DNA of 64,000 nucleotides, from assembly GCA_963642055.1 (NCBI GenBank), contig CAVIFQ010000003.1, forward strand, positions 1,205-65,204, in the 5' to 3' direction. The DNA is from Roseburia hominis (GTDB taxonomy: Bacteria; Bacillota_I; Bacilli_A; RFN20; CAG-826). Shown here in pieces: positions 10,819-62,120 of the stretch (positions within the stretch are counted from its first letter, which is position 1; each line of letters opens with the position of its first letter). Made by a program: the position numbers and the translations under genes. The notes under the pieces were generated by a model that ran no database searches, was not told the origin of the DNA, and saw nothing but the letters and a program-made list of their open reading frames with translations.

Positions 10819-10822
10819 AGAA

Positions 10823-10906
10823 TGGTGGGCGAAGATGGATTTGAACCACCGAACCCTGAGGAGCTGATTTACAGTCAGCCGCGTTTGGCCACTTCGCTAT
10901 TCACCC
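10823..10906 (-). tRNA. tRNA-Tyr(GTA)
   Basis: Acceptor GGGTGAA/TTCGCCC, anticodon arm GCTGA-CTGTAAA-TCAGC, long variable arm (class II), encoded CCA. Confidence 0.8.
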
Positions 10907-10939
10907 ACTGATTTCGTCACCGCACGTTAAGGCTAATGA

Positions 10940-11014
10940 TGGTGGATGCTACAGGTTTCGAACCTGTGACCCCCGCCTTGTAAGGGCGATGCTCTCCCGC
11001 TGAGCTAAGCATCC
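10940..11014 (-). tRNA. tRNA-Val(TAC)
   Basis: Acceptor GGATGCT/AGCATCC, D-arm GCTC-AGCGGGA-GAGC, anticodon loop CTTACAA, T-arm ACAGG-TTCGAAA-CCTGT, encoded CCA. Confidence 0.85.
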
Positions 11015-18694: not shown

Positions 18695-18779
18695 TGGTGC
18701 GGGAAACCAGAATCGAACTGGCATGAGTTGCCTCATACGCCCCTCAAACGTACGCGTCTACCATTTCCGCCATTCCCGC
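18695..18779 (-). tRNA. tRNA-Leu(GAG)
   Basis: Acceptor GCGGGAA/TTCCCGC, anticodon arm TACGT-TTGAGGG-GCGTA, variable-arm hairpin ATGAG-GCAAC-CTCAT, T-arm CCAG-TTCGATT-CTGG, encoded CCA. Confidence 0.8.
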
Positions 18780-32367: not shown

Positions 32368-35300
32368 ATCCAAATTCAACAGAGAGCAATTGGATGCCAT
32401 CTTAGCCTCAAGCCAAGAGGACATTCTTATTTCCGCCGGGGCTGGAAGCGGAAAAACGAACACCCTTTCTGAGCGCGTGAGCGAAATGCTATTAAAAGGC
32501 GAAATCAATCCAAGCGAGCTCCTCGTTCTTACTTTTACCAACAATGCCGCTCATGAAATGAAGGAGCGCATCATCGCAAAATTCCCGAAAGAGGAAAAAG
32601 AGAAAGCCAGAGAGCTTCTCTCTAGTCACATTCAGACCTTTGACTCTTTGTATCAATATCTTGTCTCTTCGTACGCGAACGAGCTTGGTTTGTCGTCGAA
32701 TTTGAACGTGCTAGATAAAACGATTGCGAAAACAAAGCAAAGCGAAATAATCGACTCTTTGTTTTCCTCATATTACGAAAATCCCAGCAAAACCGCATCC
32801 TTATTGTCGATAATCAAGAAATTCGATATGAAAGACGATTCTCAGACAAAGAAAATCGTCTTAAGTTTGTGGACAAGCATCGATAAACTCAGCCGTCCTG
32901 AGAAGAACCTCGTTTTGAATGATTACGATAGGCATTATTTGAGCGATGAGTTCATCGATTCCAAGTATCATGAACTTGTTTCTTCTTCTAAAAGCGAATT
33001 TGAAGAGGTGATATACGAGGCTGCTTTCGCCGATTATTTCTATCCGCTTTATTCCAAAGAAGGATATTCGGTGGAGAAGGCCAAGGAAGTTTTCTCAAGC
33101 CGTGGCTTCTGGGAGACCCCTTACGCGAATTTCGCTTTCGCGGAGAATAGTATCGTCGATCCGATGTACCGTAAAATCCTTGAGCTCCTTTCTCTTGGCG
33201 ATGAGGAATTCGTCGCGAAGGCTAATTCGTTCAAAGAGGATAACGAAGCCTTTTTCAAGAAGGTAATTCCCGGCTTAGAAAAGGACAGCAAAACCCAATT
33301 AGAGGCGCCTTGGAAGATAATGAAGGCCGCTTTCGGAACAAAATCAGCCGCTCTTGCGCCAATAAGAGGCCTCTTAGATAAAAAGAGCGAGCGTGAAAAA
33401 GTCCTTTATTACCGCGACGATATCATTTTCCTGCTCCAGATGATCAAAGAGGCCGATGCCATTTTCACTGATTTCAAGAAAGCGACGAATTCTTTCACCT
33501 TCTCCGATTATGCTGAATTCGCTCTCGCGCTCATGAACGATGAAAAATACGAAAAATGCGCGAAAGAGGTCAGAAACCGTTTCTCTTATATCATGGTTGA
33601 CGAATACCAGGATACCAACCCGAAGCAAGAAGCTCTCTTGTCGAGTCTTCTCAAAGAGCGCGATGATGGGAGCAGGGCGCATCTATTCGCGGTAGGGGAT
33701 GCGAAACAAAGCATCTACCTTTTTAACGGCAGTGAGGTTGCTCTTTTCCGCAATAGGCAGCGTCAATATTCTTCGGGAGCAGGGCATCGCGTGATCAACA
33801 TGAACCGCAATTACCGAAGCGGGAAAAAATTGCTGCAGGAAATCAATTACATTTGCTCATATTACATGAGGCTCGATCACGGCTTCATCGATTACAAAAA
33901 CGACCCCTCAGAGCACCTTCTTTATGACGATAAAGTGAACTTATACGGCAAGGAATACGATAATTTCTGCATTTCGCGCATCTTCACGCCGAATGATGCG
34001 ATCAAGAAAGAAAAGCGCTCGGCTCTCGATAGCAGAACAAGAGAGGCAAACATTATCGTCGAAGACATAAAAAAGAAAATCAGCGAAGGGTATTTGGTCT
34101 ATGATCGCTCCGAAAAAGCCGTCCGCCCGTGCCGCTATAATGACTTCGCCATTCTTTCGAGCGTCAAAAGCTCCTTCAGGATGTATGAGCAGATATTCAC
34201 GCAAAACGGGATAAAGCTGAATAAAAAGGTTTCCGATAACCTGCGTGAGACCGATTCCATTATTTTGATCGAATCGTTGTTACGCATCTACGCCTATTTC
34301 AATGGTGACGAAAGTCAAGATATCAGGCATTTATTCGCTTCGATCGCTCGTAGCTACGCCTTTGAATACACCGACACGAAGTTATACGAACTGCTCCACT
34401 ACGAAAACGGTGGAGACCCATATTTGAAAATCAAGTCCGATCCTTTATGGGAAGAGCTTGAGCGTTTCTCCAGAAAAAATGCCCTCACTCCTTCTAGCGA
34501 CGTTTTCCTTGCTTTGATTGATGAGTTCCATGTTATCGACCATTTGCCGAAAATCGGGGAAGTGGCGAACGTCATCGCCAAAATTGACTCTCTTTACCAG
34601 ATGATTCTCGAGAACGAGACGATGGGGAACGGCATCAAAGAATTCTTGAGCATGCTTTCGGAAATGGATAAGCATTCGCTTGAATGCGAGAACGAAACCC
34701 TCACCAATTGCGATGATGCGGTCGATATGATGACGATTCATGCCTCAAAAGGGCTTGAACGCAAAATCGTTTATTTGCCGGTTTCTCTCAATTCCATGGG
34801 GCGAGGCGATATGCGTAACGCCTCTATCCTCTCTTTTTCGATGGATAAAGGCATCGTTTTGCCGTATTTGCGTTTTGAGCCCACTAAACCGTATTCGCCG
34901 CTTAATGAATATTCGGTTTTAACCGATACCGTGTTGACGCGAAAGAAGGCCAATTACGAGAATGACCCGCTTATTGATGACCATACGCGCTTATTTTATG
35001 TGGCTTTGACGCGAGCCGAGAATCAGATCGTCATCGTCGGCGATAATCAGAAAGGCAAAGAGAATCTATACGCGATGCTCAATTGTTGCCCTCATTTCAT
35101 TAGACTGAATGATCGCTACTTCACCAAAAAAATTGATGAAGGAATCATCAAAAAGAAAGATTACGAGGCTTTTCTCGCAAATGGGGAAAACTGCAAATCA
35201 GTTTTTTTGCCTTTCTCCGCTTTGCCTTCTTTTTCCGCCTTCCGCGCATATAAGAAGATGGGGGAGGAGCATTGCTTACAGGCCCCATTAAGGGTACAGA

Positions 35301-36370
35301 ACGAGATTCTTGATCTCTTCTGCCTCTCTTTATATGAAGATTATCTAAAAAAGATAAAAGAGATAACTGACCTCGACGAACTTGCCAGCATTTATGCCGC
35401 TTTGTTTTTACCAATGGTTAAAGAAGCAGCAAATATCGCATCTTTTGCCTCTCTTGTCGCTTATCTGAATAGCGCGAATGAAGAGAAAAAAGAAGATATC
35501 GAAATCGATTATGAAGACGATGAAGATGATGATGGCGAAGGCGATGAGGGGGAGGAGAAAGCAATCTCTTTCTCGCCTAACTTGATGAAGTCGACGAACA
35601 AAGAATGGCTCGTAAGAAATACCATCGCCCACCTGTTAGCGAACGACTACGAGTTTTTCTTCGTTAAGAAGAGCAAGAAGATGACAGAAGAGGACATGAA
35701 GTTGTTTTTAAGCAAACACTTTTTGCCAGCTCTAGCTCATTACTTCGATGATACTTGGTTTATCGCCTATACATCTTATGAGAACGAAGGCTATGAAGAT
35801 CGCGTCTTTTTCGCTGAAGAACATGTGGATGCTGAACAAACAAAAGTCGCGGAAATCCCTGAATTTAAGGAACCTCGCGTCGATGAAAGGGAATTCGTTT
35901 TAATGCCCACCCAGCATAAACGCGCGAGCAAGAAAATCACTCTCATCGATAGCGATGCTCCCTCTTCCTTCGTTTTGGATAGAGGCAGCGAGCTTCACCG
36001 CCATCTTGAGATGGTGGACATTGCTTCAGGCGATGTTTCTTTTATTTCCGATTACGATGAAAGAAGGCTCATCAAGAGGGTGCTCGATTTGCCGATTATG
36101 CGTCTAGCGAAGGAATCGATCATCCACACCGAATATCAATTCTATGATCCAAACGCCCATTCAACGGGGTCAATTGATTTATTGTTCATACATGATGAGG
36201 AATACTACATTGTCGATTATAAAACGAGCCGCATAAATGACCCGGCCTACGTTGAGCAGCTATCGGTGTATACCGACAATATCTCGCGCATTTTCAACGT
36301 TGAAAAAGCAAAAATCCATTTATACCTCGTCTCGATTGTCAAAGGTGAGCAAAAAGAGATAACGCTTTAA
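32357..36370 (+). CDS. addA: ATP-dependent helicase/nuclease subunit A (UvrD/PcrA-like helicase plus RecB nuclease)
   Basis: Start at ATG 32357 (RBS ggaaaggagagg; overlaps addB by 11 nt); Walker A GAGSGKT, VDEYQDTN, C-terminal nuclease IVDYKTS; acidic insert EDDEDDDGEGDEGEE. Confidence 0.85.
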   Translation: MIDESKFNREQLDAILASSQEDILISAGAGSGKTNTLSERVSEMLLKGEINPSELLVLTFTNNAAHEMKERIIAKFPKEEKEKARELLSSHIQTFDSLYQYLVSSYANELGLSSNLNVLDKTIAKTKQSEIIDSLFSSYYENPSKTASLLSIIKKFDMKDDSQTKKIVLSLWTSIDKLSRPEKNLVLNDYDRHYLSDEFIDSKYHELVSSSKSEFEEVIYEAAFADYFYPLYSKEGYSVEKAKEVFSSRGFWETPYANFAFAENSIVDPMYRKILELLSLGDEEFVAKANSFKEDNEAFFKKVIPGLEKDSKTQLEAPWKIMKAAFGTKSAALAPIRGLLDKKSEREKVLYYRDDIIFLLQMIKEADAIFTDFKKATNSFTFSDYAEFALALMNDEKYEKCAKEVRNRFSYIMVDEYQDTNPKQEALLSSLLKERDDGSRAHLFAVGDAKQSIYLFNGSEVALFRNRQRQYSSGAGHRVINMNRNYRSGKKLLQEINYICSYYMRLDHGFIDYKNDPSEHLLYDDKVNLYGKEYDNFCISRIFTPNDAIKKEKRSALDSRTREANIIVEDIKKKISEGYLVYDRSEKAVRPCRYNDFAILSSVKSSFRMYEQIFTQNGIKLNKKVSDNLRETDSIILIESLLRIYAYFNGDESQDIRHLFASIARSYAFEYTDTKLYELLHYENGGDPYLKIKSDPLWEELERFSRKNALTPSSDVFLALIDEFHVIDHLPKIGEVANVIAKIDSLYQMILENETMGNGIKEFLSMLSEMDKHSLECENETLTNCDDAVDMMTIHASKGLERKIVYLPVSLNSMGRGDMRNASILSFSMDKGIVLPYLRFEPTKPYSPLNEYSVLTDTVLTRKKANYENDPLIDDHTRLFYVALTRAENQIVIVGDNQKGKENLYAMLNCCPHFIRLNDRYFTKKIDEGIIKKKDYEAFLANGENCKSVFLPFSALPSFSAFRAYKKMGEEHCLQAPLRVQNEILDLFCLSLYEDYLKKIKEITDLDELASIYAALFLPMVKEAANIASFASLVAYLNSANEEKKEDIEIDYEDDEDDDGEGDEGEEKAISFSPNLMKSTNKEWLVRNTIAHLLANDYEFFFVKKSKKMTEEDMKLFLSKHFLPALAHYFDDTWFIAYTSYENEGYEDRVFFAEEHVDAEQTKVAEIPEFKEPRVDEREFVLMPTQHKRASKKITLIDSDAPSSFVLDRGSELHRHLEMVDIASGDVSFISDYDERRLIKRVLDLPIMRLAKESIIHTEYQFYDPNAHSTGSIDLLFIHDEEYYIVDYKTSRINDPAYVEQLSVYTDNISRIFNVEKAKIHLYLVSIVKGEQKEITL

Positions 36371-48104: not shown

Positions 48105-48234
48105 AAAAAATCCCTCGTTATTTTACCCTTATTCCGCGGATTGATAAATAAGCTAGAAGCATATAGAAAAGAACCCAAAAAAATGCGAATTTGCCTTAGT
48201 CTAATAAGCGCGTTCAACTATAATATATGCGCTT

Positions 48235-51200
48235 ATGGGAAAAGAACTTTCATCTCTATCGAATTTAGACATCGGAATCGAGATTTCCCCGACTTGGAAT
48301 TACGCCTCTTACCAAGCCGATTTCTTCGCGAAGAGAGAAAACGGAAGCACGCGCAGCACTTCCTTTTCCTTTATAAAAAGAGTTACGGCTACCAATAAAG
48401 GCGGATCTTCCCTCCGCGATTGCGCCCTGCGCTTTTCTATTTTCCCGGCTTATTGCTCCATCGATCCCATCAAAATCGATTTCCTTGAGCAAGGCAAAAA
48501 GACGGAGATAGACCATTTTGTCGGCGAAATCGAATTTGCTTCTCTATACGCTTTATCTACCTCTCTTCCTGGCGAACTCATCGTCGATTTGGTGAATGGG
48601 AATGGTGATATCATCGCGAGCAAGAAAGCCACTTTCTCTTTTGATAACATCTCAAGCGCCCTATATTCAAGCGGAGTCCGTGAACTCCTTGCTTCTTACG
48701 TTACTCCAGACGATAAGAGCCTACAGCCGATAAAGGAAGAAGCCGGTTTGCTTTTGAAAGATAAATACGACTCCTCTTTCGCCGGCTATTCATACCGCGA
48801 TCCGAATAAGGTCATTGAAGAGATTGACGCTCTTTATCTAGCCCTTTCCAATGAGAAAATCTCTTTATCAGCCAGTTCGTCCTCGCCGATAATGTGCCTT
48901 AAAAATATCGACCTTCCTTGGCAAATATTGGACAAAAAAGAGGCGAATTGCGTGGATTTTGCGATTTTGTTCGCTTCTTTAATCGAAATGGCCGCGCTTC
49001 GTCCGCTTATCGTTTTCACAGGTGAGAAGGCTTTAGTAGGCGTCTATCTGGACGAGTCGATTTCCTCTTCTCCGCTTCTAGATAACGACACCGAATTATT
49101 GAATCTTGCCTCCAAAGGCTTCAACCGTCTTATCCTCATCGACCCCGTTTATGCCTCAAAAGAGAAGAATGCGGATTTCTCCTACGCCGTGAATGAAGGC
49201 TATCTTGCGCTTCAGAACAACCATTCCTTTTTATATGGCGTGGATATTTTCGCTTCCAGGAAAGAGCATATCCTGCCCTTGCCAACGCCGATAAAGGCGG
49301 AAGATACCTCGAAAATCGAATTCCCGGATTTTTCCGCGAAGAAAGATTATTCGATGCCGCGCGTTGAAGTCGAAAACCGCCGTTATCTTGATTCCGAGGC
49401 TCCTTCCAAAAAGAACAAATTCGATTATTGGGAGGAAAAGCTGCTCGACCTTTCAATGAACAACCGCCTTATCAATATGCGGTTCTCGAATCTTTTCCCG
49501 CAGGTTCTGAATCTTGATTCCGAGGCGCTTCTTTCAACTCTATCGAAAACAAATAAAGTTTCGGCCATATCCTCGATCGATGTTTCACCGATCAAAGAGG
49601 AACGCAATACGCCGGCGAATTTCTCCAATGCCGATAAATCGCGCTTCAATGAATATTTGGGTAAGAAGACTTTGTGCTTTGTTTCCAAAGAAGGGTCGCC
49701 TGATGATTATTTGAAGAGCCTTGCCCGTAAAGCGAATACCGCGATTGAGGAAAGCGGGTGCAATCCGCTTTTCTTAACGATCGGTTTGATCAAATGGTTC
49801 GATAATGAGAAAGCGGCAGCGCACGGGAAAGGCGCGCTTTATTCTCCGCTCTTCCTTTTGCCAGTGAAGATACCAAGAAGAAAGACCGGATCATCCTTCA
49901 GTTTGGAATACAACATTGATGATCTCGGCTTGAATACGACCATTTTTGAGTATTTCCGCGAGAACTTCGATTTGGATTTTTCGCCAGTCTTCGGCGAATT
50001 TGCCAAAACTAGCAAAAATGAGCCTGACATCCGTTTGATCTTCAATTTCATCCGTGAGCGAATTGCTTCCTTCAAAGGATGGGCCGTGCTTGAAGAGCCA
50101 TGCTCCGTGTCTTTATTCTCTTTTGCCCGCTTCGTGATGTGGAACGATATAAAGACGCACCGCGAGAAGATGATGCAGAATCCTCTTATCTCTTCTTTCG
50201 TCGATGGCTTCAATGAACTTGAAACCCAAAACGCTGATTCGGATAAGAAAACCGGCGATGAGGCCCCTTCTTCTTCTTTAGCCATTCCTCTCCCCGCCGA
50301 TTCAAGCCAAATCGATGCGATAAGAGAAAGCGCGAATGGCGTTTCCTTCATATTGGACGGTCCGCCAGGGACAGGGAAAAGCCAAACGATCGCGAATATG
50401 ATCACCAATGCCCTATACCACGGCAAGAGCGTTCTTTTCGTCGCTGAAAAAGGAGTGGCTCTCGAAGTCGTCAAAAAGAGATTGGACGCTTTAGGAATCG
50501 GCAAATTCTGTTTGACTATTCCCTCTATCAATACCGCAAAGAGCGAAGTCCTTTCCTCTTTAGGGGAAATGCTTGAGCTTGGGCAAGTCGAAAGCCCACA
50601 GGATTTTGAGACGCAGTCATCGTCAGTCGATGAGAAAAGAAACAAACTCAACGATGACTTATACGCGCTTCATCAAAAAGGAGCTTATGTTTTCTCTCCG
50701 TACGAAGCCATCATCAATTATCTGAGACTTGCTGAATATAAAGGGGCATATGAGACAAGCAAGGATTACGCTGCCTCTTTGACGACGACCGACTTTGAAT
50801 CGGCTCAGAAGGAACTCACGAATCTCAGCATGCAAGCTTCCGCTCTCGGCGGATATTACGGCAATTCCTTTTTGCCATTCTCTTCGCGCGAATATTCAAT
50901 CGAAGCCCGTGACTCCTTATTCGAGAAAATCCCTTCTTTGATCGCTGACCTCAAAGCCTTCCATATCGCCGTCTATAACTGTTTTTTCAAAGATAAAGGT
51001 TTAGCGGAAACTAGAGACAACGTTGACCTATATTATGAAATCGTCAAGCTTTTGCAGGGTAATTCGCTCCTTTTCCTCGATTATCTGAGTGATGAGACTT
51101 TCGTGCAAAAGAAGCAGGAAATGCAAGGATATTTGCTTTTGCTCGGCCAAAAATTCAAAATCAAGGAAGAGCTCTCCGAATTGTGGGAAGAGGGATTCTT

Positions 51201-54099
51201 CAAGGAAAGCGGGGAGACGCTTCTTGCCAAAAAAAGAGCAACCAAGCGGGCCAGCTTATTCGAGAAGCATCGCTTATTGATCTCGCTTAAAAAGAGCTTG
51301 AAGCCACTTGCGAAAGACAAGCGAGCCTTGAAAAAAGGAACGCTGGAGAAATCGCTCGAGAAGCTGATTGAATATCGTCACCTTGAAGAAGACGCCGAGC
51401 ATTTTGATCCCTACGTGAGATACGTTTTCTCAAAATCCCACATCAGCTCCTCTCTTGATATCGAAAACGAAATTGCTAGATATGACCGCACCTTGAAAAT
51501 CATCGATATCAAAAACGGTTTCCGTTTAGAGAAACAAGCAACGATGACTGATATTGACGATGCGATTCGTCATCTTTCCGTGAACCGGGAATATCTTTTC
51601 GCTAAAGCCAGAATGACGTTCATCTCGCAATATGATGCTCTTAAAGAGAAACTTGGCGAATTGAAAGAAAAATTTGGCTTTGATCTCTCAAATTACGAGG
51701 ACTGCTTTGATTTCTATCTCCATGTCTCTTCTTCTTTGACCGATGCTTATTCCAGCAAAGGCAAGCTTTCGGAATGGACGAACCTCTTGTTCACTTTAGA
51801 TCGTGTTTCGAAACTGGCGCCGGAAGAATTAGTCGATTCGTACCGCAACGGCAAAATCAAAGAAGACGCCCTTCTTTCATCCTACATCTGCTCCCTTTCC
51901 TATCGGATACTTTCCGATTCGTTGAGCGAAAAAGGCTTATCGACCATAAACGCGAAAGACACCAAAGAGGAAATCGCTTCTTATAAGAAAGCCATCGATG
52001 ATTTTTCAAAGACGAGCATCGTCGAGACCGTCTCTAGAATCACGAGCCTATATCCTTCTTCGAGCGCAAGCGCGCCTTCCACGACGATTTATCAGTTCAG
52101 AAAACTCATCAAAAACGGTGGACGCGGCGTCTCGCTCCGTCAGATTTTCGATCATTTCGGAACGCTTGTGCGGACTCTCTGCCCTTGCTTTTTGATGTCG
52201 CCAGCCTCCGTTGCCCAATATCTTGATATCGATTCCTACAATTTCGACTTGGTCATTTTCGATGAGGCCAGCCAAATCCCCACAAGCGAAGCCGTCGGAG
52301 CGATCGCTCGAGGCAAAACCACGATCATCGCCGGTGACCAAGAGCAGATGCCGCCATCCAATTTCTTCATGGCGAGCGGTGGTCATTCTTCTGATCCGTC
52401 ATTACTATCCAGCATGACGGAGGATTTGGAGAGTTTGCTCGATGATGCCATCGCTTTAGGACTTCCGCGGAAGCGTCTTACCTGGCATTACCGTAGCCGT
52501 CATGAGTCGCTCATCGCTTTCTCGAACAATAAATTCTACGCGAATAGCCTTATTACTTTCCCTTCGCCCGCCAACGAGAAGGCCTCAGTATCGAGCGTTT
52601 ATGTAGGCGGCAAATACGAAATGAAGCGGGGCGTCAATAGGAAAGAGGCGACTGCGATCGTCGAAGAGATAATAAGAAGATCGGCTGATCCGGTTTTATC
52701 CAACTATTCGATTGGCGTTGTCACTTTCAATGAAGCTCAGCAAAACCTCATCGAGGATCTTTTGGATAAGAAACTGCCATATGGAGAAGGGCACAAACTC
52801 GGTGGAGAGGACATTTTCGTGAAGAATCTCGAGAATGTGCAGGGTGATGAGCGCGATGTCATTCTTTTCTCGACTACCTATGCACCGAAAGAAGACGGCA
52901 AACTCTCGCTCAACTTCGGGCCTTTAAGTCGCGAAAAAGGCGAGAGAAGACTTAATGTTGCAATCACTAGGGCTAGAGAAGAGATGATTGTTTTCACCTC
53001 GATGAAGCCAACCGATATCGATGCTGAAAAAGCGAAAAACGCCGGAGCTTCTTATTTACGGAGCTTCTTGCTCTTCGCGGAGACTGGCCTTTCATCCCTA
53101 CCGAATAACATCGCTAGCCGTATCTCTTTGCCGTCAGTAAGCGTTGCCGATTTCATCGCGAAAGATTTGAAGAAACTCGGTTATCGCGCGGAAACAAATA
53201 TTGGCTCCTCTTCCTTTAAAGTCGATGTCGCCGTTGGCGATAACGGCGATAAAAACCATTATTCGCTAGGCGTTTTGGTGGACGGCGATTCCTATTGCTC
53301 TTCCCCAACGTGCCGCGACCGCAATATCGTTGAGCCGGGCATTTTAGCTAATCTAGGCTGGAACTTGTATTGGGTTTGGAGCGTTGAATATCTCGACCAT
53401 CCGCAAGAAGTCATCAAGAACATCGTGAACGCCATCAATAATTCCGACGGCAATCGGAAAATTGCTAGAGAAGGCGATTCTTTATTTGATGACCCTATCA
53501 CTTTCGCGAAGAAAGAAGTCGTTTCTCATCCTTATGCCATACCTTATAGTAGAAGAAAACTTTCTCCGATGATTCCTGAAGATTTCTCGAATAAGGCCAC
53601 ATCAGCGAGAATGCTTGGGGCTTTCATTGCCGACGTGCTTCACGATGAGACGCCGATTTCGGAGAAACTTCTCAATGAACGCATCAAAGACGCTTATGGT
53701 TTAAGCCGCATCGGATCAAACGTCCGCGATGTCATCAATATGGCTCTCAACATAAATGAGCCGAATAAAGAGATCAGAGGCGGAACCATCTTTTATTGGG
53801 ACAGAGAAAGGAAGATGGAAGAGTATCGTTATTACAGGTTGAATAACGAGGAGAATCAACGCGAAATCACCGATATCTCCTTTATAGAGCTCGGGAATGC
53901 GATTGCTGATATCTTGCTAGAACAAGGAAAAATGACGACAATCGATCTCTGCAAACAAGTGAATTCCTTGTTCGGGTTCTCCACCTTGAAAGAAAAATCC
54001 CGGAAACATCTAGAACTCGCATTGAAAGCCAACGCCAATCAAAGGCTCGGCATAACGATTGAAGACGGCTACGCCTCAATAAAAAACAAAGGACAATAA
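48235..54099 (+). CDS. giant SF1 (Upf1/DNA2-like) helicase with N-terminal DUF4011-like region, Vsr/DUF559-like endonuclease fold and DUF3320-like tail (Hhe-type single-gene defence architecture)
   Basis: Continuous 1954-aa ORF; Walker A GPPGTGKSQTI (about aa 706), Walker B VIFDEASQIP (about aa 1341), GDQEQMPP, motif VI LNVAITRAREEMIVFTS, then LGVLVDGDSY...GWNLYWVWSVEY (Vsr/DUF559-like) and a C-terminal RIKDAYGLSRIGSNV tail. Confidence 0.75.
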   Translation: MGKELSSLSNLDIGIEISPTWNYASYQADFFAKRENGSTRSTSFSFIKRVTATNKGGSSLRDCALRFSIFPAYCSIDPIKIDFLEQGKKTEIDHFVGEIEFASLYALSTSLPGELIVDLVNGNGDIIASKKATFSFDNISSALYSSGVRELLASYVTPDDKSLQPIKEEAGLLLKDKYDSSFAGYSYRDPNKVIEEIDALYLALSNEKISLSASSSSPIMCLKNIDLPWQILDKKEANCVDFAILFASLIEMAALRPLIVFTGEKALVGVYLDESISSSPLLDNDTELLNLASKGFNRLILIDPVYASKEKNADFSYAVNEGYLALQNNHSFLYGVDIFASRKEHILPLPTPIKAEDTSKIEFPDFSAKKDYSMPRVEVENRRYLDSEAPSKKNKFDYWEEKLLDLSMNNRLINMRFSNLFPQVLNLDSEALLSTLSKTNKVSAISSIDVSPIKEERNTPANFSNADKSRFNEYLGKKTLCFVSKEGSPDDYLKSLARKANTAIEESGCNPLFLTIGLIKWFDNEKAAAHGKGALYSPLFLLPVKIPRRKTGSSFSLEYNIDDLGLNTTIFEYFRENFDLDFSPVFGEFAKTSKNEPDIRLIFNFIRERIASFKGWAVLEEPCSVSLFSFARFVMWNDIKTHREKMMQNPLISSFVDGFNELETQNADSDKKTGDEAPSSSLAIPLPADSSQIDAIRESANGVSFILDGPPGTGKSQTIANMITNALYHGKSVLFVAEKGVALEVVKKRLDALGIGKFCLTIPSINTAKSEVLSSLGEMLELGQVESPQDFETQSSSVDEKRNKLNDDLYALHQKGAYVFSPYEAIINYLRLAEYKGAYETSKDYAASLTTTDFESAQKELTNLSMQASALGGYYGNSFLPFSSREYSIEARDSLFEKIPSLIADLKAFHIAVYNCFFKDKGLAETRDNVDLYYEIVKLLQGNSLLFLDYLSDETFVQKKQEMQGYLLLLGQKFKIKEELSELWEEGFFKESGETLLAKKRATKRASLFEKHRLLISLKKSLKPLAKDKRALKKGTLEKSLEKLIEYRHLEEDAEHFDPYVRYVFSKSHISSSLDIENEIARYDRTLKIIDIKNGFRLEKQATMTDIDDAIRHLSVNREYLFAKARMTFISQYDALKEKLGELKEKFGFDLSNYEDCFDFYLHVSSSLTDAYSSKGKLSEWTNLLFTLDRVSKLAPEELVDSYRNGKIKEDALLSSYICSLSYRILSDSLSEKGLSTINAKDTKEEIASYKKAIDDFSKTSIVETVSRITSLYPSSSASAPSTTIYQFRKLIKNGGRGVSLRQIFDHFGTLVRTLCPCFLMSPASVAQYLDIDSYNFDLVIFDEASQIPTSEAVGAIARGKTTIIAGDQEQMPPSNFFMASGGHSSDPSLLSSMTEDLESLLDDAIALGLPRKRLTWHYRSRHESLIAFSNNKFYANSLITFPSPANEKASVSSVYVGGKYEMKRGVNRKEATAIVEEIIRRSADPVLSNYSIGVVTFNEAQQNLIEDLLDKKLPYGEGHKLGGEDIFVKNLENVQGDERDVILFSTTYAPKEDGKLSLNFGPLSREKGERRLNVAITRAREEMIVFTSMKPTDIDAEKAKNAGASYLRSFLLFAETGLSSLPNNIASRISLPSVSVADFIAKDLKKLGYRAETNIGSSSFKVDVAVGDNGDKNHYSLGVLVDGDSYCSSPTCRDRNIVEPGILANLGWNLYWVWSVEYLDHPQEVIKNIVNAINNSDGNRKIAREGDSLFDDPITFAKKEVVSHPYAIPYSRRKLSPMIPEDFSNKATSARMLGAFIADVLHDETPISEKLLNERIKDAYGLSRIGSNVRDVINMALNINEPNKEIRGGTIFYWDRERKMEEYRYYRLNNEENQREITDISFIELGNAIADILLEQGKMTTIDLCKQVNSLFGFSTLKEKSRKHLELALKANANQRLGITIEDGYASIKNKGQ

Positions 54100-54101
54100 A
54101 T

Positions 54102-54608
54102 ATGAGCAACAACTGGTTTGAAATACGTTCGAAATCCAATCCTAAGCAAATTCTAAGCCACAGCGATAATGATGAATTCCTCTTCGTCTCTCATTTTGTC
54201 GCTTCTCCTTTCGGGGAAGAGGAAAAAGAGGAAAATGAATGGATAAGTTCCTCAAAAAGCGAACTATTTGCTTACTTCAAAGAAATCGTTTTAAGGGAAA
54301 TGCTATTTGAGGATTATGTGAATGGCGATGCTGTGCCAGAGCTTCAGAAGCATGATTTCTCTACTATCCTTGGCCTATTGATTGAAGGCGCGGAAAAAGG
54401 CGAGCTCGATGATTGGCATGATGGGCTGAAGACGCTTTTGGAGATTCGTGACTGGAGCGAAAAAGACGACGCGGATTACGCTGAGCTAGAAAAAATATTG
54501 CGCAAACACGACCTTAATCTCCATGTTGAACATTTCTCTTCTTTGGAAGAAGCGAAAAGGTGCGGTGGAGCAAAAAGAGCGTTACTTGATGAGTTTTTGG
54601 GCCGCTAA
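54102..54608 (+). CDS. hypothetical acidic protein coupled to the giant helicase gene
   Basis: 168 aa; starts 3 nt after the helicase stop with its own RBS aaagga; pI clearly acidic; no family recognised. Confidence 0.5.
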   Translation: MSNNWFEIRSKSNPKQILSHSDNDEFLFVSHFVASPFGEEEKEENEWISSSKSELFAYFKEIVLREMLFEDYVNGDAVPELQKHDFSTILGLLIEGAEKGELDDWHDGLKTLLEIRDWSEKDDADYAELEKILRKHDLNLHVEHFSSLEEAKRCGGAKRALLDEFLGR

Positions 54609-55688
54609 AGACCTCAAGCTGTCATCGCTTAATAAGAGCATTAAATCATTGGAAGAAGCAATTTTCTTCTCTTTTAAGCAAAAATGGAGAGCGTTGATAA
54701 GAGTGTCGGTCTCATTCGCGCATTTATGATAATCTTCATCGCTTGAGCCGTTATATTCTTCATCGATCAAAATAAGTAGGGCTCTTCTAAGGAGGGAGAG
54801 AATGCTTTTCTCGATCCAATACGATGTCTTCGTTTTCTTAAAAGAGGCAAAGTAGGGCACAAAGCGTAGATAGGAGAATAACCCATCAAAAGGCAAGCGC
54901 CAGATATCGACGAAAGAGTAGGAATAAGAGCCATCTCTCATGGTTTTGGCAAATTCGTAAGCGTCAGCTTCAATGATGTTTATTTTCGATTTGAATTCAA
55001 ATTGAGGAAGGATGAATTTGTTAAATAATTCAATGCAGTTTTTATCTTTTTCGATAATGGTTACCGATTCAACTTCTTTCTTAAGCGATACGCTGAATGG
55101 GTAATAGCCAAGCCCTAAACCAAACGTGATGACTTTTCCTTTTGCTTCTATGATTGAGGCTTTCATCGTGTTGATTTCATGAGGGGTTATGCTCATCCAC
55201 GTTTTCTTATTTTGGATTACCTCGATGTAGCGAAATCTCCTCAAAAAGAACCCCAATTGATTGATTTCTTTGTAATAGTCGTTTTCTTTAACGATTATTT
55301 CATCACTCAGCATTCCTTCAAAAGGAGCGTAAGAGGAAGAGGTTAATTTCCAGCTGCCTAAAGTCGAGGAAGGGAAACGGATACTTTTCCAGTAAGGATC
55401 ATTCTCGTACTCCTTCGGGTCAAGGATACTGATTTTATTGCTCGATTCATCAATGAAATCATAATCGCCTAAATTCATTAAATATTTCTTCGATTCAGAC
55501 AAGAATGAAGCCTTTGGATTACCATACTTTTTGTAAGCTTTTTCGCAACTTGAGAACATCGTCTCGTCGCGTGCTTTTAGATAGATATTGAAAGCATCGG
55601 CGTTTGCCTCATTGCGGTTCATTGTCTCTAGCAATTTATTGATTGCGTTTTCTATTTCGTGGCTATGCGTTATTTTCATCCGCCTCAT
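54582..55688 (-). CDS. spermidine-synthase-like (PABS fold) class I methyltransferase-fold protein with an N-terminal extension
   Basis: 368 aa; KVITFGLGLGYYP...SVTIIEKD...IIEADAYEF...SFVDIWRLP mirrors the SpeE motifs GGGDGG / VEID / DG / D-x-x-D-P; convergent 27-nt overlap with the preceding gene. Confidence 0.5.
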   Translation of the reverse strand: MRRMKITHSHEIENAINKLLETMNRNEANADAFNIYLKARDETMFSSCEKAYKKYGNPKASFLSESKKYLMNLGDYDFIDESSNKISILDPKEYENDPYWKSIRFPSSTLGSWKLTSSSYAPFEGMLSDEIIVKENDYYKEINQLGFFLRRFRYIEVIQNKKTWMSITPHEINTMKASIIEAKGKVITFGLGLGYYPFSVSLKKEVESVTIIEKDKNCIELFNKFILPQFEFKSKINIIEADAYEFAKTMRDGSYSYSFVDIWRLPFDGLFSYLRFVPYFASFKKTKTSYWIEKSILSLLRRALLILIDEEYNGSSDEDYHKCANETDTLINALHFCLKEKKIASSNDLMLLLSDDSLRSLAAQKLIK

Positions 55689-55738
55689 TTTAGAAAGTCA
55701 TGCGCGCCAGTGCACCTTTTTTCGCTTATCATTATCGC

Positions 55739-56150
55739 CATGAGCAGAGATTCGAAGATTATTCTGACGACAATGACCATGGTCTATCGCGATGATGGTA
55801 GCTTTTTGGTCGAAGAGAGAAAGAAAAACGATTGGCCTGGCATCAATTTTCCCGGAGGGCATGTTGAAGACGATGAATCGATTGTCGATTCAGCCAAAAG
55901 AGAAATAAAAGAAGAGACGGGCTTAAATATTTACGATTTGGAAGAAGTTGGCACTTTCGAGTGGAATATCCCTTCCGAGCACGTCCGTCATCTTTGCGTC
56001 TTATATCGCACAAACCATTTCGATGGCGAACTTATTTCAAGCAAAGAAGGCTCGGTATTTTGGATCAAAAAAGATGATTTGTCTCACTACAAGCTGAGCA
56101 CCGACTTCGACAAAGTCCTTGATAAAGCCTCACTGGGGCTTCCTTTTTGA
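55739..56150 (+). CDS. NUDIX hydrolase
   Basis: Nudix box GGHVEDDESIVDSAKREIKEETGL; start uncertain (ATG 55739 or 55772). Confidence 0.75.
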
Positions 56151-56218: not shown

Positions 56219-57607
56219 ATGGCAATCGATCAAAAACTTCTCGATATTCAAAAACATACCCACGATAACGAAGTGGAGATTCTTCGTAGCAAGACCTGTT
56301 CTTGCCTTTTTTGCCGGCAGACTTATGATGCGCGCTTAGTCAATGACTGGGCGAATGATGAACGCGGGATGAGCGCGATTTGCCCTGAATGCGGAATGGA
56401 TGCTGTTGTAGGAGATAATGGCGGTGAGCCAATGGACAAAGCTCTTCTCAAAGAGCTCAATTTGGCTTTCTACGGCAATGACTACATGAGCAAAAACCCC
56501 GATGCTGCCTATAAATACGTCAAACGTTATCAAGAAGGGAAAATAACGCATAAAATAGCCAACGAAGCTCTTTATATTCAATATTTGGCTCTGCTTTCCG
56601 AGCAAGGCTACGCGGATGCCTCTTTTTCTCTAGGGCTCTTATATGAATTCGGCGATGAGTTTACCGAAAAAGACCCCAAAACGGCTTTTGGCTACTACGC
56701 TTCTCCGTCCTTGCACGATGATGGCGAGGCGCTCGCGAGAATGGGCATTATGTGCATGAATGGAGCGACTGGGAAAGTCGATGGTCGAGGAGCTTACGAG
56801 GCCTTCGCCAAAGGCGTGGCTTTAGGAAGCCTTAAAGCCTTTATCGGTTTCTCGGATTGCTATATGAACGGAGTGGGGGTGAATGCCGATTCCTCTTTTG
56901 CTTTCGATTTGCTCGCTTCAGTTTGGAATGAGTCGTATCACCGTTTTTCTCTTTCGACGGGAAAAGACGTCAATATTTTCCCGGATTTATGCTACCGCCT
57001 AGGCTTATCGTATGAGTTTGGGATAGGGACAATGAAAGATCTCCCGACGGCTCTTCGTTTTTATCTTCTTTCCGAATTCGCTTATCGCCTCAAAGAGAAT
57101 ATGTCGGATTTATTGGAAGAAGATAAAGAAGCTTTCGCCGATGTCGAGAGAAGAATCGATGAGGCCGCGAAAACATTGAATCTTTCTCGAGGCGATCCGG
57201 CTTTCGACAACGACACTTTCTCCGATTCAGTTCTCTCTTCCGACCCTAATTCCCTCTTTTTGGGGAAAATGACTATCTCTAACCCTGTCTTCAGCAAAGA
57301 GGAAAGCTCCTTCGAGTTCGATATCAAATATTCCTTGCCGCCTTTGATTATCGATATCGGCAATCTCTATTGTGCCTTTATGCCAGGCGCCATCCATTGG
57401 CGGTTCGAGGATGTCTCCGATGTCATCATCGGGAAAAACCGCGTCTTTGACCGCATTGGAGGAGACGCCGAGACCGGATGGAACTTCATCTTTGGGTCAA
57501 ATGAGAATATTGAGCCCGTCGTTTCGGTGATTTTCTTCCAGAGCAAAAACGAGAACGACGATAAAAGCGAAGAAGCAAGCAATAAGAAAGAAGACATAAA
57601 AGCATGA
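56219..57607 (+). CDS. zinc-ribbon plus Sel1-like repeat protein
   Basis: 462 aa; N-terminal CSCLFC...CPECG, then repeats with Sel1-like A-x-x-Y/F...G-x-G/A spacing; overlaps the ABC exporter gene by 4 nt. Confidence 0.55.
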   Translation: MAIDQKLLDIQKHTHDNEVEILRSKTCSCLFCRQTYDARLVNDWANDERGMSAICPECGMDAVVGDNGGEPMDKALLKELNLAFYGNDYMSKNPDAAYKYVKRYQEGKITHKIANEALYIQYLALLSEQGYADASFSLGLLYEFGDEFTEKDPKTAFGYYASPSLHDDGEALARMGIMCMNGATGKVDGRGAYEAFAKGVALGSLKAFIGFSDCYMNGVGVNADSSFAFDLLASVWNESYHRFSLSTGKDVNIFPDLCYRLGLSYEFGIGTMKDLPTALRFYLLSEFAYRLKENMSDLLEEDKEAFADVERRIDEAAKTLNLSRGDPAFDNDTFSDSVLSSDPNSLFLGKMTISNPVFSKEESSFEFDIKYSLPPLIIDIGNLYCAFMPGAIHWRFEDVSDVIIGKNRVFDRIGGDAETGWNFIFGSNENIEPVVSVIFFQSKNENDDKSEEASNKKEDIKA

Positions 57608-61067: not shown

Positions 61068-61598
61068 TTAGAGGCGTTTGAAAAGCAGCTGCTGAGGTGT
61101 TTTAGAGAACTCGAAATCCTCTAAATCGACTCTTTTGTAGCCGTTTTTGCGGAGATATTCGATTCCTCGCTCATTAGACGGGTCTAAGGAAGAAAGGAAC
61201 AAAAAGCGGGGAAATTCCCTTTCGATATAGGAAAGCATCTCGCGTCCGACTTTCTTATGGCGGTGGAGCGGATCGACGGATAGATAAGAGAGCACCATAA
61301 CGTCTTCGCTCATCTTCCAATCGGTTTTGCCGATAACTTCCATGAGTTTTCCGCCATTGTGGCTAAGAGGATAAAAATAGGAACTTACGTCTTTTTCGAC
61401 GATCGCTAGAGCAATAACCACTCTTCTTTCGATAGCGAGGTAGCACTTTCCAGTTTCGATAAACGACTTGAGCTGCTCTTGGCTAAAGGAGGGGATGGGA
61501 AAAATAATGCCTTCGTATTTGACACTTCCCTCGACTCTTCGCGTGAGTTTGCCTAGGCTTTCTAAATCATCTTGCCTGGCTTTTCGATAAAGAATCAT
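61068..61598 (-). CDS. GNAT-family N-acetyltransferase
   Basis: 176 aa; GNAT-like core (motif A region HRHKKVGREML). Confidence 0.6.
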   Translation of the reverse strand: MILYRKARQDDLESLGKLTRRVEGSVKYEGIIFPIPSFSQEQLKSFIETGKCYLAIERRVVIALAIVEKDVSSYFYPLSHNGGKLMEVIGKTDWKMSEDVMVLSYLSVDPLHRHKKVGREMLSYIEREFPRFLFLSSLDPSNERGIEYLRKNGYKRVDLEDFEFSKTPQQLLFKRL

Positions 61599-61628
61599 GC
61601 GAATACCATAACACTTTTAGGTATGATT

Positions 61629-62120
61629 ATGCCTATGAAAGAGCGTTCTGAGAAAACGATTTCGCGCGTGATGAGCCGCATCAAAGGCAAGAATACCGGC
61701 ATTGAGCTTGCCTTAAGGAAAGAACTCTATGCTTTAGGAGTTCGATACCGCCATAACACGAGCAAAGTGTACGGACATCCGGATATATCGATCCAAAAAT
61801 ACAAAATCGCCGTCTTCTGCGACAGCGAATTTTGGCATGGGTATAATTTTGAAGAGAACAAGAAGAAACTCCATAAGCACCTTGATTACTGGATTCCGAA
61901 AATCGAGCGCAATATCGCGCGCGACAAAGAAGTGAATGAGGAACTAGAAAAAGAAGGATATACCGTCATCCGCTTCTGGGGGAGCGAGATAAACAAAGAC
62001 CCCAAAAAGTGCGCCGAAGCAGTAGTATTCGCCTTAAGAGAAAAAGGGTGGAGCGAAGCAAAAGAAAACCCGGCCTTATGGAAGCCGGGCGTGAGTCATA
62101 AAAAGAGAGACGAGGATTAG
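61629..62120 (+). CDS. vsr: very-short-patch-repair endonuclease (Vsr)
   Basis: MSRIKGKNTGIELALRKELYALGVRYRHN...HPDISIQKYKIAVFCDSEFWHG closely follows the Vsr consensus; start at ATG 61629 (AGGT 7 nt upstream). Confidence 0.8.
   Translation: MPMKERSEKTISRVMSRIKGKNTGIELALRKELYALGVRYRHNTSKVYGHPDISIQKYKIAVFCDSEFWHGYNFEENKKKLHKHLDYWIPKIERNIARDKEVNEELEKEGYTVIRFWGSEINKDPKKCAEAVVFALREKGWSEAKENPALWKPGVSHKKRDED

What the first reader, a model, noticed from the sequence alone, without database searches (positions are those of the whole stretch)
48235..54099. 1954-aa DUF4011-like / SF1 helicase / Vsr-like nuclease / DUF3320-like single-gene locus, probably an Hhe-type defence gene
Seen in the sequence: one uninterrupted 5.9-kb ORF carrying a complete Upf1/DNA2-type SF1 motor (Walker A GPPGTGKSQTI, Walker B DEASQ, GDQEQMPP, motif VI VAITRAREEMIVFTS), then a segment with the hallmarks of the Vsr/DUF559 restriction-endonuclease-like fold (LGVLVDGDSY...GWNLYWVWSVEY) and a C-terminal tail of the DUF3320 type. 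The about 700 aa ahead of the motor include a DUF4011-like region and, around aa 225-260, a block (ANCVDFAILFASLIEMAALRPLIVFTG) loosely resembling a transglutaminase-like Cys core. Established knowledge: this domain order matches the single-gene helicase+Vsr-endonuclease (Hhe) anti-phage system reported from systematic defence-island mining. The gene is flanked by poorly characterised genes rather than the housekeeping syntenic blocks elsewhere in the window, has no SD, and has a TATAAT only 10 nt from its ATG. The N-terminal 700 aa and the genetic context (the coupled downstream ORF and the divergent zinc-ribbon protein) are not part of the described minimal system as far as I know and could be a new variant.
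Basis: partly seen in the sequence, partly recalled or inferred. Interest (0 to 1): 0.85.

Follow-up and report, generated by a model that had tools for sequence, protein, structure and literature searches.

The report
Divergent ProA-family anti-phage-type helicase gene
This 5.9-kb gene encodes a giant helicase from an already catalogued family of presumed anti-phage proteins (ProA / PDC-S37, a cousin of Hhe), but this copy sits in a fixed chromosomal position in its bacterial lineage and only its motor still has a full set of catalytic residues.

Summary
The ORF (48235-54099, +, 1954 aa) and every quoted motif are real. Pfam confirms DUF4011, a split AAA_11/AAA_12 SF1 helicase, an MTES_1575 (Vsr/DUF559-like) fold and DUF3320.

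It is not Hhe. It scores 617 bits against Hhe (cutoff 2000). It scores 1411 bits, end to end, against NCBIfam "anti-phage protein ProA" (cutoff 1500), and 2.9e-295 against PADLOC candidate PDC-S37.

Two catalytic centres look disabled:
- The nuclease fold lacks the Glu and His of Hhe's IECDG..YH motif. This holds for nearly all relatives that carry the N-terminal module.
- The transglutaminase-like His is lost in this lineage only; the Cys is kept.

All helicase motifs are intact.

The locus keeps the same gene order in relatives down to about 62% identity. It has no defence neighbours, mobile-element genes or odd base composition, and it is under purifying selection. The zinc-ribbon neighbour is not linked to it. 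The 168-aa downstream gene travels with it, but only in this lineage.

Verdict: a divergent, vertically inherited member of a known family. An anti-phage role rests on homology alone. Moderate-to-low interest.

The parts
48219..48224 (+). TATAAT -10-like hexamer, 10 nt before the ATG; no Shine-Dalgarno sequence, so a leaderless or near-leaderless mRNA is inferred
   Evidence: Read directly. A TATAAT in front of the ATG is also present in L001 (70% aa identity) and L004 (62%) at about the same distance, and in L003 (43%) at 6 nt. The consensus promoter scan found no full -35/-10 pair on this strand.
48235..54099 (+). Whole gene: 1954-aa divergent ProA-family / PDC-S37-like helicase
   Evidence: ORF. 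NCBIfam ProA 1411 bits over aa 41-1916 (model positions 6-1902 of 1903) and Hhe 617 bits. PADLOC PDC-S37 2.9e-295. pN 0.11 versus pS 0.76 against an 83%-identical orthologue.
48262..48654 (+). N-terminal Ig-like beta-sandwich (aa ~10-140)
48682..49269 (+). Transglutaminase/papain-like fold (aa ~150-345). Cys239 is kept at a helix N-terminus; the predicted catalytic His is replaced by Lys265.
49438..49950 (+). DUF4011 domain (aa 402-572)
   Evidence: Pfam PF13195, E 2.3e-24, model positions 1-156 of 158.
50299..50514 (+). SF1B (Upf1/DNA2-like) helicase, first RecA-like domain, N-terminal part with Walker A (GPPGTGKSQT, aa 709-718)
   Evidence: Pfam AAA_11/AAA_19/AAA_30. PDB sequence matches to IGHMBP2 and Upf1/Nam7. 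Motif invariant in 23 homologues.
50515..52134 (+). About 540-aa insertion that splits the first RecA-like domain (aa ~761-1300); no recognised domain
   Evidence: No Pfam hit between AAA_11 and AAA_12. It is among the least conserved segments: 0.58 identity within the clade and 0.18 to ProA-scoring relatives.
52135..53034 (+). Helicase core, C-terminal part: Walker B DEASQ (aa 1343-1347), motif III GDQEQMPP, motif V VQGDERD, motif VI RRLNVAITRAR
   Evidence: Pfam AAA_12 6.7e-20. Upf1 and Sen1 structures match aa 1336-1591. All motifs invariant across homologues.
53152..53439 (+). Vsr/DUF559-like restriction-endonuclease fold (aa 1640-1735) with a non-canonical site. D1664 and D1683 are kept. 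Hhe's Glu is Leu1681 and Hhe's His is Cys1688.
53572..54084 (+). C-terminal winged-helix region that includes DUF3320 (aa ~1780-1950)
54102..54608 (+). 168-aa acidic ORF, two bases between the helicase stop and its ATG; a lineage-restricted companion of unknown function, possibly co-transcribed
   Evidence: ORF. No Pfam, PADLOC or NCBIfam hit. An HMM of the family finds it only beside the helicase, in L001/L002/L122, L004/L005, L006, L094, L095, L096, L161 and L162, and in none of the other loci held.

Best explanation
The gene encodes a divergent, vertically inherited member of the family that NCBIfam calls anti-phage protein ProA (PADLOC candidate PDC-S37). This is a sister family of Hhe.

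**Architecture (shown).** In order: an Ig-like sandwich, a transglutaminase/papain-like fold, DUF4011, an Upf1/DNA2-type SF1B helicase split by an about 540-aa insertion, a Vsr/DUF559-like nuclease fold, and winged-helix domains (DUF3320).

**Catalytic sites (shown).** Only the ATPase/helicase motifs are complete. The nuclease fold lacks the Glu and His that Hhe carries. The transglutaminase-like domain keeps its Cys but has lost the His.

**Mechanism (inferred).** The protein most likely works as an ATP-driven translocase or helicase on DNA or replication intermediates. The nuclease-like, transglutaminase-like and winged-helix modules would then serve as nucleic-acid or protein binding and sensing surfaces. 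It probably does not act as an Hhe-style helicase-guided endonuclease.

**Role (inferred).** By homology, its most likely role is still interference with phage or other foreign DNA, as a stand-alone protein expressed from a leaderless mRNA. It may work with the lineage-specific 168-aa protein encoded just downstream.
For: **Family placement**
- ProA model: 1411 bits, collinear over aa 41-1916. PDC-S37: 2.9e-295.
- Relatives at about 30% identity pass the ProA cutoff: P0022 2076 bits, P0024 2252, Bacteroides finegoldii 2197, an Acinetobacter plasmid copy 1782.

**Architecture**
- Helicase motifs invariant across 23 homologues.

**Nuclease site**
- Hhe has IECDG..YH; the window protein has VLVDG..YC.
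- 129 of 135 relatives that carry the transglutaminase module have a non-acidic residue at the Glu position. 19 of 22 relatives without the module have Glu.
- An E-to-A change in Hhe's nuclease domain abolishes its defence (bioRxiv 10.1101/2022.06.16.496414).

**Loss of the transglutaminase His**
- Confined to the window clade. That domain has also drifted further from ProA-scoring relatives than in the sister clade: 0.26 versus 0.36 identity.

**Selection**
- pN/pS is about 0.15, and all domains are constrained.

**Defence or mobile context in other members of the family**
- Acinetobacter plasmids, next to IS256, an integrase and a WYL protein.
- A retron-type reverse transcriptase next to the B. 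finegoldii copy.
- A Klebsiella IncF plasmid copy between IS elements.
Against: - The protein falls just under the curated ProA cutoff (1411 versus 1500). I could not find the primary paper behind the ProA name in ten literature searches. The anti-phage label therefore rests on a database name.
- In this lineage the gene has no defence neighbours and no tRNA near the locus. The ORF lists show no integrase or transposase. Base composition is unremarkable.
- The locus is syntenic across species-level divergence. That pattern is more typical of a core gene.
- Calling the nuclease and transglutaminase sites inactive is an inference from missing residues. D1664 and D1683 persist, and the AF2 model is poor exactly around aa 1685-1699.
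- No experiment was possible.
Confidence: 0.55

Rival explanations
1. Domesticated helicase. A ProA-type gene was captured by an ancestor of this Bacilli lineage. It now serves a host function such as genome maintenance, replication-transcription conflict resolution or RNA/DNA surveillance, not phage defence.
For: - Fixed position between the YitT/495-aa genes and the 368-aa/NUDIX/Sel1/ABC block in relatives at 83%, 70%, 65% and 62% identity.
- A sister clade keeps the gene right after gidA-gidB-parA-parB in two species.
- A copy that passes the ProA cutoff, in Ruminococcus, lies between azlCD and mfd.
- No PADLOC hits in the neighbours beyond generic domains.
- It diverges about as fast as its neighbours: in L094 the helicase is 65% identical, against 52-77% for the neighbouring genes. 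Purifying selection acts on every domain.
- The transglutaminase His is lost on top of the non-canonical nuclease site.
- Precedent: a large DUF4011 gene is a core gene of all P. aeruginosa isolates (PMC10250203).
Against: - More distant relatives keep the Sel1-NUDIX-368-aa block without the helicase within 10 kb. The gene is therefore not indispensable to the wider group.
- The family as a whole is patchy, plasmid-borne in several phyla and catalogued as defence.
- Single-gene defence genes can stay at one site for a long time.
Confidence: 0.3
2. Bona fide Hhe-type system. A helicase delivers an active Vsr-like endonuclease that cuts phage DNA.
For: - It shares the core order DUF4011, SF1 helicase, Vsr-like fold, DUF3320.
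- Significant partial matches to the Hhe models: 8e-130 in PADLOC and 617 bits in NCBIfam.
- 37% identity to annotated Hhe over aa 1291-1735.
Against: - 617 bits is far below the 2000-bit Hhe cutoff, and ProA and PDC-S37 score much higher.
- Annotated Hhe (1911 aa) starts directly with DUF4011 and has no Ig or transglutaminase module.
- The motif Glu and His of Hhe are Leu1681 and Cys1688 here, and those positions vary across the clade.
- Hhe is a typical accessory gene, found in 309 of 5,426 complete E. coli genomes. This gene is syntenic in its lineage.
Confidence: 0.05
3. New two-gene variant. The helicase and the translationally coupled 168-aa acidic protein form an obligate pair, for example motor plus regulator, inhibitor or effector. 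The zinc-ribbon protein might be a third part.
For: - The gap between the genes is 2-16 nt in the window, L001, L004, L161 and L162.
- The 168-aa family occurs only beside the helicase in nine or more loci, and is missing where the helicase is missing.
- It has a strongly conserved core: EIVLREMLFEDYVNGDAVPELQ...GELD.WH.G.
Against: - It is restricted to one lineage. The sister clade and all 80 distant loci lack it.
- In L006 another ORF sits between the two genes.
- Co-occurrence cannot be told apart from plain synteny at this depth.
- The zinc-ribbon gene is 7 kb away in L006.
- The 168-aa protein matches no family in any library.
Confidence: 0.15

Closest known systems
Anti-phage protein ProA (NCBIfam NF058533.1, equivalog model, 1903 positions)
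   Same: - End-to-end collinear match: aa 41-1916 against model positions 6-1902.
- Same Ig-like plus transglutaminase-like N-terminal module, DUF4011, split SF1 helicase, MTES_1575 fold and DUF3320.
- Same replacement of the Hhe-type Glu by a hydrophobic residue in the nuclease fold.
   Different: - Scores 1411 bits, just under the 1500-bit cutoff. Its Bacilli sister P0012 also falls short at 1478 bits, while proteins that pass the cutoff score 1782-2252.
- The transglutaminase His, present in most of the family (Cys+His in 161 of 187), is lost here.
- This copy sits in stable chromosomal synteny.
- The primary literature on ProA could not be retrieved, so its tested phenotype and mechanism are unknown to me.
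PADLOC phage-defence candidate PDC-S37 (PDLC05009)
   Same: The match has E 2.9e-295 and covers model positions 7-1538 of 1550, aligned to aa 393-1938. That is the DUF4011, helicase, nuclease-fold and C-terminal core.
   Different: The model starts at DUF4011, so it does not include the about 390-aa Ig and transglutaminase module. It is a candidate family, and I found no description of it.
Hhe (single-gene helicase + Vsr-endonuclease anti-phage system; NCBIfam NF042953, PADLOC PDLC02194)
   Same: Homologous core with the same domain order. 37% identity over aa 1291-1735 and 32% over aa 493-807 to an annotated Klebsiella/E. coli Hhe. Both are single large genes.
   Different: - Hhe has no Ig or transglutaminase module. 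It has the canonical IECDG..YH nuclease motif, and an E-to-A mutant loses defence.
- It is an accessory gene in 5.7% of complete E. coli genomes and occurs on IncF plasmids next to IS elements.
- The window protein fails the Hhe cutoff: 617 versus 2000 bits.
Upf1 / IGHMBP2 / Sen1 / DNA2-type SF1B helicases
   Same: Motor motifs and sequence matches to solved Upf1, IGHMBP2, Sen1 and Nam7 cores over aa 689-772 and 1329-1591.
   Different: Only the motor is shared. The first RecA-like domain is split by an about 540-aa insertion, and the flanking domains are unrelated.
Transglutaminase-like fold proteins, including catalytically inactive DNA-binding ones (PNGase, Rad4/XPC, LapG, TglA)
   Different: No Pfam Transglut_core hit. 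The His of the triad is missing in this lineage. Rad4/XPC, which uses this fold to bind DNA without catalysis (my own knowledge of the family), is therefore the better functional analogy.

Membership tests
Hhe (NF042953 / PDLC02194) | Whole-protein score above the curated equivalog cutoff (2000 bits) | tested here: not met
   617.2 bits. The best stretch covers only aa 1013-1736. PADLOC Hhe scores 8e-130, also partial.
Hhe (NF042953 / PDLC02194) | Domain order DUF4011, SF1 helicase, Vsr-like nuclease fold (with DUF3320 tail) | tested here: met
   Pfam hits appear in that order.
Hhe (NF042953 / PDLC02194) | Canonical nuclease motif IECDG..YH. A Glu in this domain is needed for defence (E1731A in the preprint; it is probably E1727 of the 1911-aa RefSeq protein, but this 4-residue numbering offset is unverified). 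| tested here: not met
   The window protein has GVLVDGDSYC, with Leu1681 for the Glu and Cys1688 for the His. Mutant data come from bioRxiv 10.1101/2022.06.16.496414.
Hhe (NF042953 / PDLC02194) | Protein begins with DUF4011, with no extra N-terminal module | tested here: not met
   Annotated Hhe starts with the DUF4011 motif at about aa 20. The window protein has about 390 extra residues forming Ig-like and transglutaminase-like domains.
Hhe (NF042953 / PDLC02194) | Anti-phage phenotype on expression | not testable with these tools
   Needs plaque assays.
ProA (NF058533) | Whole-protein score above the curated equivalog cutoff (1500 bits) | tested here: not met
   1411.3 bits, a near miss with full-length coverage. 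Sister P0012 scores 1478. P0022, P0024, the B. finegoldii copy and the Acinetobacter copy score 1782-2252.
ProA (NF058533) | Collinear full-length architecture including the N-terminal Ig-like plus transglutaminase-like module | tested here: met
   Model positions 6-1902 of 1903 align to aa 41-1916. A profile of the N-terminal module finds 7,355 representative clusters, and the top hits are mostly 1,900-2,000 aa.
ProA (NF058533) | Conserved Cys-His pair in the transglutaminase-like domain (a family consensus derived here, not a published definition) | tested here: not met
   Cys239 is present. The His position is Lys265, and K/R/S/E/D in the eight closest homologues aligned (P0002-P0010). 161 of 187 family members have Cys+His.
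ProA (NF058533) | Anti-phage phenotype | not testable with these tools
   The primary report was not found in ten literature searches.
PADLOC PDC-S37 | Match to the family HMM over nearly its full length | tested here: met
   E 2.9e-295, 981 bits, model positions 7-1538 of 1550. It is a candidate family with no other stated criteria.
Vsr / DUF559 / MTES_1575 restriction-endonuclease-like nucleases | Fold | tested here: met
Vsr / DUF559 / MTES_1575 restriction-endonuclease-like nucleases | Complete catalytic residue set (Asp on strand 2; Glu-x-Asp and His after strand 3) | tested here: not met
   D1664 and D1683 are present. The Glu is Leu1681 and the His is Cys1688, and both positions vary in the clade. 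Activity itself was not tested.
Transglutaminase-like / papain-like cysteine enzymes | Fold with Cys at a helix N-terminus | tested here: met
Transglutaminase-like / papain-like cysteine enzymes | Cys-His-Asp catalytic triad and a Pfam Transglut_core match | tested here: not met
   The His is replaced by Lys265. No Transglut_core hit. hhalign to a Transglut_core protein gives E 0.15.
SF1B Upf1/DNA2-like helicases | Walker A, Walker B and motifs III, V and VI intact | tested here: met
   GPPGTGKSQT, DEASQ, GDQEQMPP, VQGDERD and RRLNVAITRAR are all invariant in 23 homologues. Sequence matches to Upf1, IGHMBP2 and Sen1 structures.

The most novel reading that the evidence does not exclude
In this Bacilli lineage a ProA-type defence helicase has been fixed in the chromosome. 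Both accessory catalytic centres look disarmed: the nuclease fold lacks its Glu and His, and the transglutaminase-like fold lacks its His. Only the SF1B motor is intact, and the gene is permanently paired with a lineage-specific 168-aa acidic protein.

It would then be one of two things:
- a new non-nucleolytic, motor-only mode of interference with foreign DNA, or
- a defence gene domesticated for host genome maintenance.

A related family-level point is also open. Relatives that carry the transglutaminase module almost never have the nuclease Glu (6 of 135), while relatives without the module almost always do (19 of 22). This suggests that ProA-type and Hhe-type proteins use different effector chemistries on a shared helicase scaffold.
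Probability: 0.25. Interest if true: 0.55.

Novelty: new member of a known kind. Interest (0 to 1): 0.3.

Why it matters
The gene adds a divergent, chromosomally fixed branch to a family that annotation pipelines already name (ProA / PDC-S37).

Its practical value is as a natural mutant. It keeps the motor but lacks residues expected for both accessory enzymes, and it is still under strong purifying selection. It could therefore show which activities this type of helicase really needs.

It could also show whether such genes drift from accessory defence genes into core chromosomal genes, as the core DUF4011 gene of P. aeruginosa hints.

It is also a warning for automated calls. This protein should not be labelled Hhe, and the 'Vsr nuclease' label should not be read as proof of nuclease activity.

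Tried and rejected
- **Literature on ProA and PDC-S37.** Ten full-text searches and look-ups in three papers did not find the source of the ProA name or any description of PDC-S37.
- **ProA-like gene in E. coli.** I searched complete E. coli genomes for a ProA-like gene, hoping to read its RefSeq annotation and any 'ProB' neighbour. There was no DNA-level match. NCBIfam scans of neighbours of ProA-scoring proteins found no partner family.
- **Sequence test of the transglutaminase domain.** hhalign against a real Transglut_core protein (the gene upstream of the helicase in L006) puts Cys and His in register but is not significant (E 0.15). Only the fold search supports the assignment.
- **dN/dS.** Synonymous sites are saturated against the 83% orthologue (pS 0.76), and the closest copy (L161) is identical, so only pN/pS could be given.
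- **Mobile-island hypothesis for this locus.** Rejected. There is no tRNA nearer than about 29 kb, no integrase or transposase in the ORF list, GC of 0.44-0.47 like the rest of the window, and conserved synteny.
- **Variable defence hotspot beside the 368-aa gene.** Rejected. Relatives without the helicase carry glycoside hydrolases and sensor kinases there.
- **Zinc-ribbon protein as part of the system.** Rejected.
- **Source organism.** It is only inferred to be an uncultured gut or rumen member of the Bacilli.
Full report
**1. The observation**

The window holds one uninterrupted ORF at 48235..54099 on the + strand (1954 aa, ATG start).

Pfam confirms the domain calls:
- DUF4011, aa 402-572, E 2e-24
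- AAA_11 (aa 689-752) and AAA_12 (aa 1399-1589)
- REase_MTES_1575, aa 1641-1734, E 2e-19
- DUF3320, aa 1792-1832, 26.9 bits against a cutoff of 25

A TATAAT lies at 48219-48224, ten bases before the ATG, with no Shine-Dalgarno sequence. A TATAAT ahead of the ATG is also kept in relatives at 70%, 62% and 43% protein identity. A leaderless mRNA is a reasonable inference. The simple promoter scan found no full -35/-10 pair.

**2. Which family**

| Model | Score | Curated cutoff | Coverage |
|---|---|---|---|
| NCBIfam ProA (NF058533) | 1411 bits | 1500 | aa 41-1916 against model positions 6-1902 of 1903 |
| NCBIfam Hhe (NF042953) | 617 bits | 2000 | partial |
| PADLOC PDC-S37 | E 2.9e-295 | none | model 7-1538 of 1550 against aa 393-1938 |
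| PADLOC Hhe | E 8e-130 | none | partial |

Relatives at about 30% identity pass the ProA cutoff:
- P0022 from Ruminococcus, 2076 bits
- P0024, 2252 bits
- a Bacteroides finegoldii protein, 2197 bits
- an Acinetobacter plasmid protein, 1782 bits

The window protein and its Bacilli sister P0012 (1478 bits) fall just below.

So the gene is a divergent branch of the ProA/PDC-S37 family, and Hhe is a sister family. I could not find the paper behind the ProA name in ten literature searches. The anti-phage label is therefore a database statement that I could not verify. No member of the family has a solved structure. Only Upf1, IGHMBP2 and Sen1 helicase cores match.

**3. The N-terminal region**

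There is no Pfam Transglut_core hit, and a profile-sequence comparison is not significant.

A profile of this module finds 7,355 representative clusters at E ≤ 0.001 and 1,784 at E ≤ 1e-30. The best hits are mostly 1,900-2,000 aa long. The module is standard equipment of a very large family, not a new variant.

**4. The catalytic sites**

*Helicase.* All helicase motifs are invariant across 23 homologues: GPPGTGKSQT, DEASQ, GDxxQMPP, VQGDERD and RRLNVAxxRAR.

*Nuclease fold.*
- An annotated Hhe (1911 aa) from a Klebsiella plasmid is at least 99% identical to the E. coli genes. It reads IDLAV...GIECDGAAYH...RDRDR.
- The window protein reads VDVAV...GVLVDGDSYC...RDRN. Hhe's Glu is Leu1681 and Hhe's His is Cys1688.
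- A preprint reports that an E-to-A change in Hhe's nuclease domain (E1731A) abolishes defence. It is probably this Glu, with a 4-residue numbering offset that I could not verify.
- Among 157 family proteins, 129 of the 135 that carry the transglutaminase module have a non-acidic residue at the Glu position. 19 of the 22 without the module have Glu.

*Transglutaminase-like domain.*
- Cys239 is invariant.
- The predicted His is conserved in most of the family (Cys+His in 161 of 187). In the window protein it is Lys265, and it is R, S, K, E or D in the other homologues of at least 56% identity.
- This domain has drifted further from ProA-scoring relatives in the window clade than in the sister clade (0.26 versus 0.36 identity). 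Other domains show no such gap.

*Conclusion on the sites.* That only the motor retains a full catalytic complement is shown. That the other two domains now act as binding modules is inferred.

**5. Genomic context**

- *Close relatives.* Relatives at 83%, 70%, 65-66% and 62% protein identity have the same order: YitT, the 495-aa gene, the helicase, the 168-aa gene, then the 368-aa gene on the opposite strand and NUDIX. Where the contig extends further, Sel1, two ABC transporter genes, GNAT and Vsr follow. A copy identical at the nucleotide level, from a second assembly, has the same order.
- *At 50% identity.* The downstream part is kept, but the 495-aa gene is 7 kb away and another ORF separates the helicase from the 168-aa gene.
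- *Sister clade.* Two species at 42-43% identity have the gene directly after gidA-gidB-parA-parB.
- *More distant relatives.* They keep the Sel1-NUDIX-368-aa block without the helicase within 10 kb, and carry ordinary metabolic and signalling genes there.
- *The window itself.* Neighbours have no PADLOC hits beyond generic NUDIX, Vsr and UvrD matches. There is no nearby tRNA, no integrase and no compositional shift.
- *Selection.* pN is 0.11 against pS 0.76 to the 83% orthologue, with every domain constrained.
- *Elsewhere in the family.* The gene behaves like mobile cargo. It is on Acinetobacter plasmids beside IS256, an integrase and a WYL protein. It is on a Klebsiella IncF plasmid between IS elements. 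In B. finegoldii it lies beside a retron-type reverse transcriptase.
- *Hhe for comparison.* Hhe is accessory, present in 309 of 5,426 complete E. coli genomes.

**6. The neighbours proposed as parts**

The zinc-ribbon protein and the 368-aa protein are lineage genes with no link to the helicase outside the lineage.

The 168-aa acidic protein is different. An HMM finds it only next to the helicase, in nine or more loci, and never in loci that lack the helicase. The gap between the two genes is 2-16 nt. It is confined to this lineage and matches nothing in any library. A partnership is possible but cannot be separated from plain synteny.

**7. Interpretation**

*Best explanation (0.55).* A divergent, vertically inherited ProA-family helicase that acts through its SF1B motor. 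The nuclease-like, transglutaminase-like and winged-helix domains would serve as binding or sensing modules. By homology it most probably still interferes with phage or foreign DNA.

*Rivals.*
- A domesticated host-maintenance helicase (0.3). It is supported by the synteny, the lack of defence neighbours and the precedent of a core DUF4011 gene in P. aeruginosa.
- A two-gene variant with the 168-aa protein (0.15; this is not exclusive of the others).
- A true Hhe-type nuclease system (0.05). The sequence criteria contradict it.

**8. Verdict**

This is a new member of a known kind. Two points are worth keeping. One is the apparent loss of both accessory catalytic centres in a gene that is still strongly constrained. 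The other is the family-wide anticorrelation between the transglutaminase module and the nuclease Glu.

Noticed in passing
Protein family level (P0001-P0212, Hhe from L089:2981-8716): Across 157 relatives, proteins with the N-terminal transglutaminase-like module almost never keep the Hhe-type nuclease Glu (6 of 135). Proteins without the module almost always do (19 of 22). The sample is biased by how the proteins were collected.
   Followed up: partly
window 61572-62120 (+): [quoted passage not shown] The GNAT-Vsr pair is seen at the same place in L001, L004 and L005 (62-70% relatives). None of the neighbouring ORFs I scanned against Pfam is a cytosine-5 methyltransferase; I did not search the rest of the window.
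   Followed up: partly
window 54582-55688 (-), 55659-56150 (+), 56219-57607 (+): A 368-aa protein with only a weak SAM-methyltransferase-like hit (RrnaAD, E 0.004), a NUDIX hydrolase and a Sel1-repeat protein form a block. The block is conserved far beyond the helicase-bearing lineage: many metagenome loci at 39-47% identity have it. Its function is unknown.
   Followed up: partly
L006:8596-9942 (+), immediately upstream of the 50%-identical helicase: A separate 448-aa Transglut_core protein, with a weak match to the MAG6410 family of transglutaminase-related lipoproteins, sits on the same strand directly before the helicase gene in this relative only. This is probably coincidence.
   Followed up: partly
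L088:13831-14961 (-), Bacteroides finegoldii: A retron St85-type reverse transcriptase (234.8 bits against a cutoff of 235) lies immediately downstream of a ProA-scoring gene. That gene itself sits next to rpsA, on a record labelled 'plasmid 29' that looks chromosomal.
   Followed up: partly
window 32288-36370 (+): A 1360-aa UvrD/AddA-like helicase with a C-terminal nuclease-like end. It gives only generic GajB/UvrD hits in PADLOC and is probably the housekeeping AddA/RexA.
   Followed up: no
window 55659-56150 (+): The mechanical NUDIX ORF (163 aa, GTG start) overlaps the end of the 368-aa gene. Called orthologues are 125-161 aa, so the real start may be further downstream.
   Followed up: no
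window 10520-11014 (-) and 18695-18779 (-): A cluster of five tRNA genes (Leu, Lys, Gln, Tyr, Val) and a single tRNA-Leu. Both are far from the locus and unrelated to it.
   Followed up: no
L161 (Logan SRR13434599 contig, 3001-8865): A public assembly contains a copy of the gene identical at the nucleotide level, with the same neighbours. The window therefore comes from the same or a nearly identical organism as that sample.
   Followed up: partly
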